Source: Myxococcota bacterium (GTDB taxonomy: Bacteria; Myxococcota_A; UBA796; CAJQPC01). From it: a stretch of DNA of 64,000 nucleotides. The notes under the pieces are model-generated. The model saw only the letters and a list, made by a program, of their open reading frames with translations. It was not told where the DNA came from and did no database searches. The translations under genes were made by a program, and so were the position numbers. The DNA lies in assembly GCA_036012755.1 (NCBI GenBank), contig DASCPX010000183.1:1-64000 (forward strand). Reading direction: 5' to 3'. Shown in pieces: positions 49,206 to 53,935 of the stretch (within the stretch, counting starts at the first letter, position 1; every line of letters begins with the position of its first letter).

Positions 49206-49913
49206 CTAGCGCTTCTGCTTCAAGGCATGGGCCGCCCGGCGGCGCCGGCCCAGGTCCGAGACCTCCTTGACGGCGTCTAGCTGATCGAGCACGTCGTCGA
49301 CCTCGTCGATGGCCAGATCGGCCGTGACGCGGGTCGAGGCCACGTGCAGCGTGCGCACCGTCTCGATGAGGTCCTCCACCTCCTCCTCGTCCTCCGCGTT
49401 TCCAAGAGGCACTCGGAGCAAGGCCGAGCGGAAGGCCTCGCGGATCCGGCGGGCGGCCTCGACCACGCGCGGGTTCTCGTGGCGGGCCAACTCGTCGAGC
49501 AGGGTCAGCGCCGCCTGCTGGCGGGTGTCGCCAGGTGCGATCTGCGAGGTGGCGGGCGGTGCGATCTGCGAGGTGGCGGGCGGTGCGATCTTCTTGACCT
49601 GCTCCGTCGTGAACAGGATGCGGTCTCCCTCCCAGGCCGTGCAGTGCATCGTGAAGCCGTTGTAGGAGACGACCTGGATCCTGAGCGTGCGGCCCGAGAC
49701 GACCACCTGGTGGATCGCCTCGGTGACGTAGTTGCCGCCGATCCGAGTCGTGTCCTGGACGACGCCGCTGACGGCGACGGTCTCCCGCAGGCCGTAGTTC
49801 CGGATCTTGATCGTGCTGCCGGCGAACTCGAACTCCCAGCTGTGGAAGGGGATGACCCACATCAGCGTCGGCAGCACACCGAGCAGGAAGACGAGCAGGG
49901 CTAGGACCTCCAT
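49206..49913 (-). CDS. Membrane-anchored hypothetical protein
   Basis: N-terminal TM; TGATG-coupled to dipeptidase; 24-bp tandem repeat 49534-49591 (IAPPATSQ). Confidence 0.7.
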   Translation of the reverse strand: MEVLALLVFLLGVLPTLMWVIPFHSWEFEFAGSTIKIRNYGLRETVAVSGVVQDTTRIGGNYVTEAIHQVVVSGRTLRIQVVSYNGFTMHCTAWEGDRILFTTEQVKKIAPPATSQIAPPATSQIAPGDTRQQAALTLLDELARHENPRVVEAARRIREAFRSALLRVPLGNAEDEEEVEDLIETVRTLHVASTRVTADLAIDEVDDVLDQLDAVKEVSDLGRRRRAAHALKQKR

Positions 49914-50914
49914 CAGCCGGCGACCTCCGTGAGCACGCGCAGGAAGTTCCCTCCCCAGCAGGCAAGGATCTCGGGCGCCGTCCATCCCCGCTCGAGCAGG
50001 GCCTGGGTCAACAGCGGCAGCTTGTCGGCGCCGTCGAGGTCGCGAGGGTAGAGGCTCCAGCCCTCCCAGTCGCTGCCGATGGCGCAGTGCTCGACGCCGA
50101 CCACGTCGCGGATGTGGGTGAGGTGGTCGACGACCGCGGCCAGGCCGCCTGGGCCGATGAAGGGCGTGACGAAGATCACACCGATGACACCGCCGGTGTC
50201 CGCGATAGCGCGCAGCTGGGAGTCGTCGAGTCCGCGCGGGCTGTGGTGGACGCTGTTGCAGGCGGTGTGGGAAGCGATGACCGGGGCCCGGGTCCGCTCG
50301 CAGAGCTCGAGCAGCCCCGCTCGGTTCAAGTGCGCGACGTCGATGACCATCTGCAAGCGGTTCAGCTCGTCGACGAGGTCACGACCGTAGTCCGTCAGGC
50401 CAGCCTTCGGGTCCTGACCCCAGCCGACCATCGGCTTGCAGGCCTCGTTCTCGCTGAAGTGGGCGAAGCCGACGTAGCGCATGCCGCGGTCGCGGTAGTG
50501 GGAGAGCTTCCCGAGCGAACCGACCAGTCCGTGGGCGCCCTCCAGGCCCGCGAAGCAGGCGATGCGACCAGCCTCGCAGGAGGCACGGATCGTCGCGCTG
50601 GTCGTGGCCAGCTCGAGGTCGTCGGGGTGGGCGGCGAGCTTGGCGTGCATCCGGTCGAGCATGCGCTCGATCTTCGTGGGGCCGCGGCGGCCCGCCAGGG
50701 GGGAGACCACCACACCCAGGGCCAGGCAGCCGACGTTGCCGGCGCGCAGACGAGGCAGGTCGACGTGCCCCATCAGGGCGGCGCCCGGGAGCAGGTTCGG
50801 GCGGTGCTCCCGAGCCCAGTTCCACGCGAGGAAGGTGGTCGTGAGCAGGACGTCGCAGTGGAGATCGATGATCAGCGCCTGCTCGTGGATCGCCCGGGCC
50901 TCTTCGCTGATCAC
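49913..50914 (-). CDS. Membrane/renal dipeptidase family (peptidase M19)
   Basis: IIDLHCD, GHVDLPRL, GLEGAH, IDVAH, IASH, IGSDWEG, GGNFLRVL; GTGA overlap. Confidence 0.9.
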   Translation of the reverse strand: MISEEARAIHEQALIIDLHCDVLLTTTFLAWNWAREHRPNLLPGAALMGHVDLPRLRAGNVGCLALGVVVSPLAGRRGPTKIERMLDRMHAKLAAHPDDLELATTSATIRASCEAGRIACFAGLEGAHGLVGSLGKLSHYRDRGMRYVGFAHFSENEACKPMVGWGQDPKAGLTDYGRDLVDELNRLQMVIDVAHLNRAGLLELCERTRAPVIASHTACNSVHHSPRGLDDSQLRAIADTGGVIGVIFVTPFIGPGGLAAVVDHLTHIRDVVGVEHCAIGSDWEGWSLYPRDLDGADKLPLLTQALLERGWTAPEILACWGGNFLRVLTEVAG

Positions 50915-51819
50915 AGGAGCCTCCCGACCACGTCGACACCTTCCCAGCTCCCGTTGTCGACAGGTCGCTGGAGCTGGCCCGGGGCGCAGAGGGTGTGGAA
51001 GCCCACGGGCTCGACGTCGGTCGCACAGGCTCCGAGCGGGAGACCCTCCAGGATGGCGAGATCGTCCAGCGTCGCGATGGCGTGGACCGGCAGCATGCGG
51101 GGCAGGGGCGCCGGCGCGAGGAACTCCAGCGGCAACAGCGGGACCGCCCACTCGTTGCCGCTCCAGCAGCGCCCGCGGACCCGCCCGAGCCCGCAGCGTC
51201 GGCGCCACTCGGGGCCGACGGCCGGGTCGACCTCGCCGCGCGGCATGCTGATCGCGAGCTCGCGAAGGGCCTGGGCGACGCGCATCGCGAGGCGCTCGGC
51301 GTCCCCGAGGCAGAAGATCGCGGCGGGGCTGCGGCACCCCGCCCCGTCGTAGAGCGCCGCGTCCTCTGCCAGGGCTCGCGCGGTCGCATTGGAGATGTCC
51401 TCTACGACGGCGAAGCTGACCCGGTGGCCGAAGAGGGCCTTCGGACCAGCGAAGGCGCTCTCGAGGGTGGACATCGCCGCGTCGGCGCCAAAGGCGAGGA
51501 GGGCGTCGACCTGCTCCAGCAGGGTGAGATCGTGGCCCTCGACGCAGCGGACGCCGTAGGCCTCTGCGATGGCGCGAGTCGCCTCGGGCCTGCGGGACGG
51601 GGCCTTGAGCACCACCTCGCAGCCGAGCCTGGTGAAGCGGTCGACCCAGCGCAGAGGCGCGGTGAAGACGTTCTGCGCGCACCAGATGGCCACCCTGCGT
51701 GCGCTGCCGCTTCGCGTGGTCGCCGTCGAGATGCACTCCAACTCGACGCGCAGTGCCTCTCGGGCGCCCTCCTCCGAGAGGCCGGTGTTCCAGGTCGCGG
51801 GGTCGCCGAGAGCTCTCAC
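50911..51819 (-). CDS. luxC: LuxC-like acyl-CoA/acyl-protein reductase (compact)
   Basis: LKAPS, AFGADA, FGHRVSFAVV, DAALYDGAGCRSP catalytic Cys motif, PGQLQRP. Confidence 0.72.
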   Translation of the reverse strand: MRALGDPATWNTGLSEEGAREALRVELECISTATTRSGSARRVAIWCAQNVFTAPLRWVDRFTRLGCEVVLKAPSRRPEATRAIAEAYGVRCVEGHDLTLLEQVDALLAFGADAAMSTLESAFAGPKALFGHRVSFAVVEDISNATARALAEDAALYDGAGCRSPAAIFCLGDAERLAMRVAQALRELAISMPRGEVDPAVGPEWRRRCGLGRVRGRCWSGNEWAVPLLPLEFLAPAPLPRMLPVHAIATLDDLAILEGLPLGACATDVEPVGFHTLCAPGQLQRPVDNGSWEGVDVVGRLL

Positions 51820-52670
51820 TCGGCCGCCAGCGAGCAGCCTCGGGGCTCGGCTCTCTGAAGTCGGCCCTGGAGGAAGACGCGACCCCCGCGGACCTCGCCG
51901 AGATCTTCGGTCTCGATCGCGAGCAGGCTGCTCCAGTTCGCCAGGTCCACGAAGCGCAAGAGCCCGACTCCCTCCGTGGGCTCGCCGCTGAGCGGATCGA
52001 CCGCGTAGGGAACGAGCCAGCGGGGCGGAAGGTAGCCCTCACCGGGGGCACCCCACAGCTGGGAGGACAGCTCCGTCATGCCGTACTCGTCGATGCGCCG
52101 GAAGTGGGGCCCCAGGCCAGCGCGAAGGTCGAGGTGCTCCGGGGAGTCACCCTTGAAGCCACCCGTGACCATCACGACCGAGCCCGGCGGGAGCTCCATG
52201 ACAGGCAGCTCGGCGGCTCGGGACGCGGTGGTGGCGACGAACACCGGGCCCTCGCCTGAGGGGGCATCAGCGGTGGCGTCCGGGAAGAGCATTCGCATCA
52301 TGTGACCCAGGGAGCTGTCAGCTGCCCTCGGGCAGAGGTTCAGGGCTTGTGGGGGCGGGTCCGTCACGCAGGCCTCGAAGTGGAGACGCGCGGCCACATC
52401 GTAGGCCTCTGTGTCGGCCATCATGTGCACGCCCCGCTCCCCGGTCGTGCCGCTGGTGCGGAAGGTGACGCCCTGTCTCGAGGTGCAGAACACGAGCGCC
52501 CGGCAGAGTCGGACAGGCACCGCCGGGATCTCGTGGAGCGAGGTCGGCTCGACCCCCGCGGCGAAGTCCCGGTGGACCGGGGACACGGTGACCTGCCAGC
52601 GGAAGAGCTCCAGCGCGAAGGCCTCGACGTCGCCGCCGTGCCGGAGGAAGTCCAGGACACGAGCCCTCAC
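51816..52670 (-). CDS. luxE: LuxE-like acyl-protein synthetase
   Basis: ALELFRWQ, IPAVPV, FRTSGTTG, TGGFKG, EYGMTELSSQ, DLAN, TEDLG, GR..AEPRGCS. Confidence 0.82.
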   Translation of the reverse strand: MRARVLDFLRHGGDVEAFALELFRWQVTVSPVHRDFAAGVEPTSLHEIPAVPVRLCRALVFCTSRQGVTFRTSGTTGERGVHMMADTEAYDVAARLHFEACVTDPPPQALNLCPRAADSSLGHMMRMLFPDATADAPSGEGPVFVATTASRAAELPVMELPPGSVVMVTGGFKGDSPEHLDLRAGLGPHFRRIDEYGMTELSSQLWGAPGEGYLPPRWLVPYAVDPLSGEPTEGVGLLRFVDLANWSSLLAIETEDLGEVRGGRVFLQGRLQRAEPRGCSLAAE

Positions 52671-53908
52671 GACAGCTCTCCGAGGGCGCCCAGGAAGGCC
52701 TCGAGCTGCTCCTTGGTGACGGTCAGCGGTGGGGTCAGGGCCAGGACCTCGGCCTGCTCCCCGGCTGGCAGCGCGATGAACCCGCGCTCCAGCAGCCCGC
52801 GGCTCAGGGCCAGGCTGTCGGTGACCTCGAGACCCAGCAGGAGCCCGCGACCCCTGACCTGGCCGAAGCCGGCCAGCTCATCGGCGAACCAGCGCCCGAG
52901 CTCGGCAGCGCGCTGGGGAAGGGCCGTCTCGAGGATCACCTGGATGCAGGCCAGCGCCATCGCGCAGCCCGGGGGATGACCGAGGAAGGTCTGGGTGTGG
53001 AGCGCCTCGCCAGCGCTGGCGCCCCAGGCCTCCATGATCTCCCGGCGACCGACACAGGCCGAGATGGGCGCCCCTCCGGCCATGCCCTTGCCGAGGCAGA
53101 CGAGGTCGGGGAGGAGGCCCTCTGCCTGGAAGGCGAAGAGGCTGCCGGTGCGCCCGAAGCCCGTGTAGATCTCGTCGAGGATCAAGACGGCGCCTGCCTG
53201 ATCGCAGGCCTCGCGCAGGTCCCCGAGCCAGCCGGCCGGGGGCACGCGGATGCCGCCGCGTCCCTGGATCGGCTCGACGAGCACGGCGCCGGCGTCGCCG
53301 AGATCGATCGCCCCACCAAAGGGGGCGTGGCGCACGTGGTGGCCGAGCTGCTCCTCGAAGGGCGCGCGGAAGGAAGCTGACTTGTAGGCGGTGGCGGCGA
53401 GCGCACCGTAGGAGAGGCCGTGGTAGCCGCCGGAGAAGGCCAGCACGCCTGGGCGCCCGCTGGCGATGCGTGCCGTCTTCAGCGCCGCCTCCACCGCGTC
53501 GGAGCCAGAGGTCCCGAGGATGCTGTGGTCGAGCCCCGTGATCGCCGCGAGGCGCTCCAGGAGCTCGATGCGTCGCGGGTCCGGGAAGGCGTCTCCCATC
53601 GCGTGGGGAAGGCGCGAGAGCTGGGCTCGCCCCGCGGCGACGACCCGGGGGTGGCGGTGACCGACGCTGGCCGCGCCGAAGCCAGCGGTGAGGTCGACGA
53701 AGACGTTGCCGTCGACATCACGGACGTTGGCTCCCAGGGCCTCGTCCCAGACCATCGGATCGGTGTCGGCGGTGCCGAGGGTCGCAGCGCGACGGGCTCG
53801 CCGCGCCGTGATCGCGGGGCACTCCCGCCGGGCGAGCCGGTCCACCCAGGCGCGCGAAGTCGGGCCCGGGACCGCGGTCTTCAGCGCTGGCAGGGAGCGA
53901 CCGTCCAC
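52667..53908 (-). CDS. Class III PLP-dependent aminotransferase (GabT-like)
   Basis: DVDGNVFVDL, GHRHP, SGSDAVE, YHG, EPIQGRGG, DEIYTGFGRTG, LGKGMAGG. Confidence 0.92.
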   Translation of the reverse strand: MDGRSLPALKTAVPGPTSRAWVDRLARRECPAITARRARRAATLGTADTDPMVWDEALGANVRDVDGNVFVDLTAGFGAASVGHRHPRVVAAGRAQLSRLPHAMGDAFPDPRRIELLERLAAITGLDHSILGTSGSDAVEAALKTARIASGRPGVLAFSGGYHGLSYGALAATAYKSASFRAPFEEQLGHHVRHAPFGGAIDLGDAGAVLVEPIQGRGGIRVPPAGWLGDLREACDQAGAVLILDEIYTGFGRTGSLFAFQAEGLLPDLVCLGKGMAGGAPISACVGRREIMEAWGASAGEALHTQTFLGHPPGCAMALACIQVILETALPQRAAELGRWFADELAGFGQVRGRGLLLGLEVTDSLALSRGLLERGFIALPAGEQAEVLALTPPLTVTKEQLEAFLGALGELS

Positions 53909-53935
53909 CTCGGCCCTCTAACCCCAGGCAAGATA

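What the first reader, a model, noticed from the sequence alone, without database searches (positions are those of the whole stretch)
49206..53908. Luciferase-free luxE-luxC coupled to a class III aminotransferase and an M19 dipeptidase: candidate acid-to-aldehyde-to-amine pathway
Seen: five translationally coupled genes (GTGA/TGATG overlaps): aminotransferase, LuxE-like, LuxC-like, dipeptidase, membrane protein; no luxA, luxB or luxD in the window. Established: LuxE plus LuxC reduce a carboxylic acid to an aldehyde, and class III aminotransferases convert aldehydes to primary amines; reductase plus transaminase is how tambjamine TamH makes a fatty amine. Inference: the operon may make a fatty/alkyl amine or amino-lipid, with the amidohydrolase making, cleaving or recycling an amide. 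Both Lux proteins are unusually compact (284 and 302 aa).
Basis: partly seen in the sequence, partly recalled or inferred. Interest (0 to 1): 0.75.

Follow-up and report, generated by a model that had tools for sequence, protein, structure and literature searches.

The report
Three-enzyme bypass in queuosine synthesis
Three of these five genes form a conserved acid-to-aldehyde-to-amine relay that most likely makes preQ1, the precursor of the tRNA base queuosine, in bacteria that lack the two usual enzymes, rather than a fatty amine as first proposed.

Summary
The five overlapping genes are real, but only aminotransferase, luxE-like and luxC-like form a conserved unit. Of 201 genomes sampled from the phylum (Myxococcota by record titles), 164 carry the aminotransferase and/or luxE-like gene, and fusions occur. 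The dipeptidase is a local neighbour; gene 5 had no homologue in 220 loci. The acid-aldehyde-amine chemistry holds; the fatty-amine product probably does not. QueC passed its cut-off in 1 of 164 triad genomes (inside a DNA-modification cluster) versus 34 of 37 others; QueF in 0 versus 30. QueA stays in 160 of 164. This genome has folE2, queD-like, queE, tgt, queA and queG but no queC or queF. queE lies just upstream of the aminotransferase in 11 of 80 metagenome loci. Best reading (0.75): 7-carboxy-7-deazaguanine to 7-formyl-7-deazaguanine to preQ1, replacing QueC and QueF. No enzyme was assayed. The scan noted this trio and this reading before on other DNA; I took the lead from those notes and tested it here. 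Ten paper searches found no description of it.

The parts
52667..53908 (-). Class III PLP aminotransferase of a distinct subfamily (EPIQGRGG with Arg217; Asp106; Lys274); proposed 7-formyl-7-deazaguanine to preQ1 transaminase
   Evidence: PF00202 E 1.5e-82; below the cut-off of each of the 25 best NCBIfam models shown; R217 and D106 invariant in 30 of 30, present in 131 and 125 of 150 representatives; 160 of 201 phylum genomes
51816..52670 (-). LuxE-like acyl-protein synthetase (adenylation motif FRTSGTT; C-terminal Cys279 in RGCSL); proposed activator of 7-carboxy-7-deazaguanine (CDG)
   Evidence: Orthologue profile vs 7xc6_E E 1.2e-38; PF04443 in 35 of 40; C279 invariant in 40 of 40; model pLDDT 91.4, closest solved folds are PaaK-type aryl-acid adenylases
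50911..51819 (-). LuxC-like acyl-thioester reductase (catalytic Cys162); proposed source of 7-formyl-7-deazaguanine
   Evidence: PF05893; profile vs 7xc6_A E 8.7e-36; C162 invariant in 41 of 41; 39 of 41 genomes of the order
49913..50914 (-). M19 membrane-dipeptidase family amidohydrolase; coupled here, but probably an independent gene
   Evidence: PF01244; neighbour only in close relatives; an M19 gene lies elsewhere in 5 of 5 other triad genomes, with 3 stops in G125
49206..49913 (-). Unknown protein with an N-terminal hydrophobic segment and a short internal repeat; lineage-specific passenger
   Evidence: No Pfam or NCBIfam family; no homologue at 30 bits or more in 220 loci; Atlas hits below 0.8

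Best explanation
The aminotransferase, LuxE-like and LuxC-like proteins are a non-orthologous replacement for QueC and QueF in queuosine biosynthesis. FolE2, QueD and QueE (encoded elsewhere in the genome) make 7-carboxy-7-deazaguanine (CDG). The LuxE-like enzyme adenylates CDG with ATP and carries it as a thioester on Cys279. The acyl group passes to Cys162 of the LuxC-like enzyme and is reduced by NAD(P)H to 7-formyl-7-deazaguanine. The PLP enzyme transaminates the aldehyde to preQ1, which Tgt inserts into tRNA and QueA/QueG finish. No amide or nitrile (preQ0) is formed. Shown: the families, conserved catalytic residues, linkage and fusions, mutual exclusion with queC/queF, the rest of the pathway, and queE clustering. 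Inferred: the substrate, the aldehyde intermediate, the amino donor and the direction. The dipeptidase and gene 5 are not part of it.
For: 1) Pathway hole in this genome (95.95% complete): folE2, PTPS/QueD-like, queE, two tgt genes with the bacterial Val233-type GGLSVGE motif (PMC3660597), queA and queG (86) are present. queC and queF were not found by family search, by tblastn with 6+6 queries, or by profiles that score controls at 138-340 bits. 2) Mutual exclusion in 201 genomes: queC over cut-off in 1 of 164 triad genomes vs 34 of 37 others; queF in 0 of 164 vs 30 of 37. The one exception, G210, has queC inside a dpdB-folE2-queE-queD cluster. 3) Switches within groups: family f11 in the same class has queC/queF and no trio; G166 has queC and a bimodular QueF and no trio, while 4 other members of its family have the trio. 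G164 lacks trio, queC, queF, queE and queA together. 4) queA in 160 of 164 and a queE-model match in 156 of 164 triad genomes; 3 of 5 re-searched misses carry the Cx14CxxC QueE. 5) queE within 2 kb upstream on the same strand in 11 of 80 metagenome loci, in 4 of 47 aminotransferase lineages, including queE-AT-fused luxE/luxC in L329. A 40%-identical aminotransferase sits in a queE-queC-queD-folE-queF cluster (L392). 6) Fusions: 4 AT-LuxE and 1 LuxC-AT among the best 150 representatives; LuxE-LuxC in L155 and L329. 7) A 1.8-Mb genome (G125) keeps the trio, folE, queD, queE, tgt and queA while lacking argC, proA and lysA.
Against: No biochemistry. Kin are not independent, so the Fisher p-values overstate the case, and the anti-correlation was tested in one phylum only. 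No queuosine gene lay in any of the 140 Myxococcota loci scanned except one folE, so the physical link comes from other lineages. Other neighbour families recur in as many lineages as queE or more (Gfo/Idh/MocA-like 6; sigma factor, SDR, kinase, metallophosphoesterase and two unnamed families 4 each). This genome's queE (262.9 bits vs 300) and queD-like protein (59.9 vs 89.25) are below the curated cut-offs, and no folB hit was found, so the PTPS protein could serve folate synthesis. Many queE matches are weak (E 1e-10 to 1e-25); the 9 examined best match QueE models but fall below cut-off. Four triad genomes had no queA match (G142, G195, G209, G219; 86-93% complete), and queG is in pieces in G125. 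Six triad genomes of family f3 have a QueF-like gene below cut-off; the 2 aligned lack the catalytic Cys (89), but E. coli QueF Cys variants were reported to keep activity (PMC13740343). In 12 of 34 metagenome loci with room the aminotransferase had no luxE within 2.6 kb. No preQ1 riboswitch was found in the 11 queE-linked loci or the window.
Confidence: 0.75

Rival explanations
1. One reading: fatty acid to fatty aldehyde to fatty amine or amino-lipid, with the dipeptidase making or cleaving an amide (TamA/TamH-like logic).
For: LuxE and LuxC of luminous bacteria act on myristic acid (PMC9157457). TamH and TabE/TabA reduce and transaminate C12 chains (bioRxiv 2025.08.11.669332). A lipid would also explain near-core retention.
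Against: It does not explain the exclusion with queC/queF or the queE clustering. No acyl carrier, thioesterase or acyltransferase recurred as a neighbour. The LuxC-like proteins end a median 15 residues after the HDG-equivalent glycine, against 44 in 7xc6_A, so most lack the segment said to build the long hydrophobic cleft (the numbering offset is my inference, and a non-triad paralogue also has a short tail). The dipeptidase is not conserved.
Confidence: 0.07
2. The trio reduces and aminates another small (hetero)aromatic acid in cofactor metabolism, such as a pterin/folate or thiamine-pyrimidine intermediate, and these bacteria get preQ1 in another way.
For: folK is a divergent neighbour in 7 of 40 phylum loci and 15 of 80 metagenome loci, and folB lies directly upstream in L185. 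The closest solved folds of the LuxE-like model activate aryl acids.
Against: The folK link did not reach two lineages in the neighbour count. It leaves the queC/queF hole and the mutual exclusion unexplained. No riboswitch was found in the window or in 11 loci.
Confidence: 0.08
3. The anti-correlation reflects shared ancestry or lifestyle: these largely predatory lineages salvage preQ1 from prey, have lost queC/queF, and the trio does something unrelated or works on deazaguanines in the degradative direction.
For: The genomes are related and the pattern follows families. The L392 aminotransferase sits beside intact queC and queF, where it may deaminate preQ1. Transaminations are reversible (established).
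Against: Salvagers have no use for queE, yet it is matched in 156 of 164 triad genomes. E. coli YhhQ had no match in this genome (one query, other transporters not tested). There are switches within a class and within a family. ATP-driven LuxE activation favours reduction (established).
Confidence: 0.07
4. A bypass in amino-acid synthesis (glutamate or aminoadipate to semialdehyde to ornithine, proline or lysine; Lys2-like).
For: argC was not found over cut-off in this genome. A separate luxE-luxC paralogue sits with homocitrate-synthase-like and homoaconitase-like genes in G008 and G026.
Against: G053 has the trio plus argC, proA and lysA; G125 has the trio and none of them; G052 lacks the trio and all three. 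Only 5 genomes were tested.
Confidence: 0.03

Closest known systems
LuxC-LuxE fatty acid reductase of luminous bacteria (Photobacterium phosphoreum, PDB 7XC6; PMC9157457)
   Same: Homologous synthetase and reductase (profile E 1.2e-38 and 8.7e-36) with both catalytic cysteines; adjacent genes; ATP- and NAD(P)H-driven acid-to-aldehyde chemistry expected.
   Different: An aminotransferase partner, often fused, instead of luciferase; shorter proteins lacking most of the LuxC C-terminal segment; P0002 has no match and P0003 only 20 bits to the NCBIfam LuxE/LuxC equivalogs; predicted substrate is CDG, not a fatty acid.
QueC + QueF (preQ0 synthase and nitrile reductase) of canonical queuosine synthesis (PMC5699537, PMC11130926, PMC13740343)
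   Same: Same predicted input (CDG from QueE) and output (preQ1 for Tgt and QueA); both begin with ATP-dependent activation of the carboxylate.
   Different: No sequence relation; goes through a thioester and an aldehyde instead of an amide and a nitrile; nitrogen comes from an amino donor via PLP; nearly mutually exclusive with queC/queF in the genomes searched.
TamA/TamH and TabE/TabA tambjamine alkylamine-tail enzymes (bioRxiv 2025.08.11.669332)
   Same: Adenylation, thioester reduction and transamination in series; TabE is an ALDH-fold reductase clustered with LuxC.
   Different: These are secondary-metabolite clusters using a carrier protein and C12 chains; the trio is single-copy, near-core and has no carrier gene as a recurring neighbour.
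Class III omega-aminotransferases GabT, YgjG/PatA, ArgD (PDB 1sff, 4uox, 1vef)
   Same: Fold, PLP lysine and YHG / DE..TG.GRTG motifs.
   Different: Arg217 replaces the EPIQGEGG glutamate, the C-terminal arginine of YgjG aligns to alanine, and Leu follows YHG; the roles of those residues in GabT are recalled, not read. Scores are far below the equivalog cut-offs shown.

Membership tests
LuxE acyl-protein synthetase family (PF04443) | Profile match | tested here: met
   Not for P0002 alone, but 35 of 40 orthologues and profile vs 7xc6_E 1.2e-38
LuxE acyl-protein synthetase family (PF04443) | AMP-binding motif and C-terminal acylated cysteine | tested here: met
   F70, S73 and R277 G278 C279 invariant in 40 of 40
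LuxC acyl-CoA reductase family (PF05893) | Profile match and catalytic cysteine | tested here: met
   45.4 bits vs cut-off 21; C162 invariant in 41 of 41; 7xc6_A 8.7e-36
Bioluminescence lux operon (luxCDABE) | LuxE and LuxC equivalog scores | tested here: not met
   NF052251 20.2 bits vs 750; no NF052244 match for P0002
Bioluminescence lux operon (luxCDABE) | luxAB and luxD beside luxCE | tested here: not met
   Flanking genes are an aminotransferase, a dipeptidase, sigma factors and a kelch protein; no luciferase or LuxD recurred among neighbours (one luciferase-like monooxygenase in L162 only). Whole genome not searched for luxAB.
Class III aminotransferase (PF00202) | Profile match, PLP lysine and aspartate | tested here: met
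   277.9 bits; D245 and K274 invariant in 30 of 30
GABA / ornithine / putrescine aminotransferase equivalogs | Equivalog cut-off and canonical substrate-site residues | tested here: not met
   The 25 best of 69 models shown are all below cut-off; GRGG instead of GEGG
De novo queuosine pathway | FolE/FolE2, QueD, QueE upstream | tested here: met
   folE2, PTPS/QueD-like and queE found in this genome; queD and queE below TIGR cut-offs
De novo queuosine pathway | Bacterial-type Tgt, QueA, QueG downstream | tested here: met
   Val233-type motif in both tgt copies, the Cys158-type motif seen in the copy beside queA and not checked in the other
De novo queuosine pathway | QueC and QueF | tested here: not met
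   Not found in this genome; this is the hole the trio is proposed to fill
De novo queuosine pathway | Queuosine present in tRNA; CDG turned into preQ1 by the trio | not testable with these tools
   Needs tRNA analysis and enzyme assay
TamH-type fatty-amine pathway | Carrier protein and acyl-chain processing genes in the cluster | tested here: not met
   No such recurring neighbour among the clustered neighbours
M19 dipeptidase (PF01244) | Profile match and metal-binding motifs | tested here: met
   267.6 bits; motifs located (their roles are recalled)

The most novel reading that the evidence does not exclude
A second, widespread de novo route to preQ1 that avoids the amide and nitrile: a luciferase-free LuxE-LuxC pair reduces 7-carboxy-7-deazaguanine to its aldehyde and a dedicated Arg-switch aminotransferase completes preQ1. 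It would be the normal route in most of one bacterial phylum and in parts of others (Verrucomicrobiia and Bdellovibrionota by source labels), and would suggest that the bioluminescence fatty-acid reductase has a housekeeping relative acting on a nucleobase.
Probability: 0.72. Interest if true: 0.85.

Novelty: new variant of a known kind. Interest (0 to 1): 0.72.

Why it matters
Queuosine synthesis is described with one route, through QueC and QueF. Most genomes of this phylum sample keep queE, tgt and queA but lack both genes, so they would be classed as salvagers or as incomplete. A three-gene replacement would close that hole, give a function to a large unannotated group of LuxE/LuxC homologues and to an aminotransferase subfamily now labelled GABA transaminase, and offer a carrier-free carboxylate-to-amine cascade for a heteroaromatic acid. 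One complementation experiment in E. coli tests it.

Tried and rejected
Amino-acid bypass (argC, proA, lysA in 5 genomes): no fit. Dipeptidase and gene 5 as members: rejected. Viral or plasmid carriage: no LuxE-like relative in viral contigs; the viral aminotransferase hits were distant, at most 39% identity, and I did not examine them further; no plasmid match at 1e-70. Riboswitch or other RNA family: none in the window or in 11 queE-linked loci apart from one tRNA; no tRNA in the window. Complex prediction of the three proteins: no answer, score 0.00, no evidence either way. Aminotransferase model and Foldseek: only generic class III matches. The first phylum search with the narrow alignment found 113 of 201 and missed whole families, so it was replaced by the broad alignment. 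A re-search of the luxE-negative genomes with the broad LuxE alignment gave no result, so their negative status rests. LuxC was not searched phylum-wide; it was found in 32 of 40 hand-picked phylum loci. Paper searches: LuxE+LuxC+aminotransferase+myxobacteria 0 papers; LuxE+LuxC+class III aminotransferase 1, on Aeromonas flagellar glycosylation, unrelated; LuxE+LuxC+Myxococcus 2, irrelevant; acyl-protein synthetase terms 5; queuosine genes with LuxE, none of the 20 listed of 24 holds LuxE (76); preQ1+CDG+aldehyde+aminotransferase 1, a Bacillus annotation review not opened; alternative pathway 4; LuxC-LuxE structure, 6 listed of 13; 7-formyl-7-deazaguanine 1, whose passage was not displayed; non-orthologous queC with Myxococc 9. 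The library lacks most subscription papers, and I read no supplements.
Full report
1. The observation. Five minus-strand genes lie at 53908-49206 and overlap by GTGA, GTGA, GTGA and TGATG. Pfam gives a class III aminotransferase (E 1.5e-82), LuxC (6.7e-12) and an M19 dipeptidase (1.8e-79); gene 2 and gene 5 have no family on their own. Gene 2 is nonetheless LuxE-like. It hits 7xc6_E weakly, 35 of 40 orthologues hit PF04443, their profile hits 7xc6_E at 1.2e-38, and the C-terminal RGC cysteine is invariant. The LuxC-like profile hits 7xc6_A at 8.7e-36 with an invariant catalytic cysteine. The window's copies are among the shortest in their alignments, and the exact 284-aa sequence is on record on 13 contigs, which argues against a one-off assembly slip. 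Record titles of close relatives read Myxococcota or Deltaproteobacteria UBA796, among clearly mislabelled titles.

2. What the unit is. In 41 genomes of the order, the LuxE-like gene was found in 40, the aminotransferase in 41 and the LuxC-like gene in 39. In 201 genomes drawn from the phylum, the LuxE-like gene matched in 164 and the aminotransferase subfamily in 160, one copy each (paralogues reached at best 3e-93). Both were found in 159. G006 has a split aminotransferase; G220, G106 and G197 gave LuxE only and G213 the aminotransferase only. I count these 164 as triad genomes. The other 37 had neither gene, or (G177) only a weak LuxE match; 17 of the LuxE-negative handles were inferred from their absence in the printed list. 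Where at least 2.6 kb was held on both sides, luxE lay within 2.6 kb of the aminotransferase in 41 of 46 genome loci and 22 of 34 metagenome loci. In family f17 the aminotransferase is present but unlinked. Among the best 150 representatives at 50% identity there are four aminotransferase-LuxE fusions and one LuxC-aminotransferase fusion, and LuxE-LuxC fusions occur in L155 and L329; single fusions could be assembly artefacts. The aminotransferase is a distinct subfamily: Arg217 (GRGG for GEGG) and Asp106 are invariant in 30 of 30 phylum sequences and present in 131 and 125 of 150 representatives. The dipeptidase was in the locus in 19 of 44 close-relative loci with room, but 0 of 31 phylum and 0 of 33 metagenome loci. 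An M19 gene lies elsewhere in 5 of 5 other triad genomes and has three stops in G125, whose trio is intact. Gene 5 had no homologue in 220 loci.

3. Finding the substrate. Before consulting earlier notes I had tested amino-acid bypasses in 5 genomes and found no fit. I had also seen that the 1.8-Mb genome G125 keeps the trio, and that folK and folB are occasional neighbours. Earlier notes of this scan proposed replacement of QueC and QueF; I treated that as a lead and tested it. This genome (95.95% complete) has folE2, a PTPS/QueD-like gene, queE, two tgt genes with the bacterial Val233-type motif, queA and queG. It gave no queC or queF by family search, by tblastn with twelve queries, or by profiles that score control proteins at 138-340 bits; the best queC score was 19.5 bits over 65 positions. 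Across the 201 genomes, queC passed its cut-off in 1 of 164 triad genomes and 34 of 37 others, and unimodular queF in 0 of 164 and 30 of 37. The one exception, G210, has its queC genes in a dpdB-folE2-queE-queD DNA-modification cluster. G166 carries queC and a bimodular QueF and no trio, while four other members of its family carry the trio; family f11 in the window's own class has queC/queF and no trio. G164 lacks trio, queC, queF, queE and queA together. queA matched in 160 of 164 triad genomes and a QueE model in 156 of 164; of 5 of the 8 misses re-searched, 3 have a Cx14CxxC QueE over cut-off. With a query from other lineages, 11 of the 80 metagenome loci kept (of more than 600 matches) have queE within 2 kb upstream on the same strand, in 4 of 47 aminotransferase lineages. 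L329 reads queE, aminotransferase, fused luxE/luxC, and the largest such clade carries a Verrucomicrobiia label. L392 has a 40%-identical aminotransferase in a queE-queC-queD-folE-queF cluster without lux genes.

4. How it most likely works. Established: QueE makes CDG and QueC converts it to preQ0 in two ATP-dependent steps (PMC5699537); QueF reduces the nitrile (PMC13740343); LuxE and LuxC use ATP and NADPH to turn an acid into an aldehyde through cysteine thioesters (PMC9157457); reductase plus transaminase gives primary amines in tambjamine synthesis (bioRxiv 2025.08.11.669332). Inferred: the LuxE-like protein adenylates CDG and holds it on Cys279, the LuxC-like protein takes it on Cys162 and releases 7-formyl-7-deazaguanine, and the aminotransferase makes preQ1. 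Arg217 may bind the amino donor's carboxylate in place of the missing C-terminal arginine, and Asp106 may read the guanine face; both are guesses from position. Weak structural support: most LuxC-like proteins lack the C-terminal segment said to build the long fatty-acyl cleft, and the LuxE-like model (pLDDT 91.4) is closest to aryl-acid adenylases. The second point may simply reflect the family fold, as only 118 LuxE residues are resolved in 7XC6. Confidence 0.75.

5. Against. Nothing was assayed. The genomes are kin and come from one phylum. No que gene other than one folE lay in the 140 Myxococcota loci scanned. Other neighbour families recur in as many lineages as queE or more. This genome's queE and queD-like proteins are below TIGR cut-offs and no folB was found, so the PTPS protein may serve folate. 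Many queE matches are weak; 9 examined best match QueE models but below cut-off. Four triad genomes had no queA match, and G125's queG is in pieces. Six f3 genomes have QueF-like genes; two aligned lack the catalytic cysteine, though E. coli cysteine variants were reported to keep activity. Salvage was tested with one transporter query only.

6. Comparison and novelty. The Lux-like proteins are members of the LuxE and LuxC Pfam families, but this is not a lux operon; the aminotransferase is class III but none of the named equivalogs shown. The trio is unrelated in sequence to QueC and QueF and is proposed to work in their place. Ten paper searches showed no description of this trio or of an aldehyde route to preQ1; the library lacks most subscription journals. 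Papers seen: passages of PMC7874193, PMC11130926, PMC3660597, PMC9157457, PMC5699537, PMC13740343 and bioRxiv 2025.08.11.669332; all others as search listings only; no supplements. The scan has reported this trio and this reading on other genomes; those notes are the source of the idea, not evidence for it.

Noticed in passing
L149:2479-10994 (G008) and L150:6608-15016 (G026): A second, divergent luxE-luxC pair without the aminotransferase sits with homoaconitase-like large and small subunits and a TrxB-like flavoprotein; in L150 also a homocitrate-synthase-like gene and a TIGR04190-like B12 radical SAM gene. It looks like a separate chain-elongation and reduction cluster of unknown product.
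   Followed up: partly
L392:2048-12132: Low-GC cluster queE-queC-queD-folE-queF, a heme-oxygenase-like protein, three ATP-grasp ligases, an aminotransferase of this subfamily and an MFS exporter; its QueC clusters with Aneurinibacillus thermoaerophilus proteins. Candidate 7-deazaguanine-peptide natural product cluster.
   Followed up: partly
L224:4653-5231, L225:4618-5196 (family f3): 193-aa QueF-like proteins with an N-terminal extension and no catalytic cysteine, in genomes without queC; 6 of 14 genomes of the family have such a match. Function unknown.
   Followed up: partly
G000 contigs C27 and C190; also G053, G070, G156: Two tgt genes over the bacterial Tgt cut-off in 4 of 5 genomes tested; the role of the second copy is unknown.
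   Followed up: no
L332:6689-6946, L334:6707-6946, L335:6679-6918, L384:5918-6157: An 80-86 aa ORF with no Pfam family lies between queE and the aminotransferase in the Verrucomicrobiia-labelled clade.
   Followed up: no
L214, L215, L216, L217, L218, L235 (about 253-263 aa radical SAM genes): A divergent QueE-like type with insertions, far below all QueE cut-offs, in several triad-bearing families.
   Followed up: partly
L223:5719-11995 (G210): A dpd-type cluster with dpdB, folE2, Cx14CxxC queE, queD and two queC genes in a genome that also has the trio.
   Followed up: partly
window 49540-49590: Gene 5 holds a tandem repeat encoding IAPPATSQ about two and a half times; other members of its cluster are 243 aa.
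   Followed up: no
window 53909-53935: Only about 27 bases separate the aminotransferase start from a divergent kelch-repeat gene, so both promoters must overlap coding DNA.
   Followed up: no
L341:8251-9279 and 11 other loci: A Gfo/Idh/MocA-like oxidoreductase is the most widely recurring neighbour (6 of 47 lineages); in the loci viewed it follows the aminotransferase in luxE-luxC-AT order.
   Followed up: no
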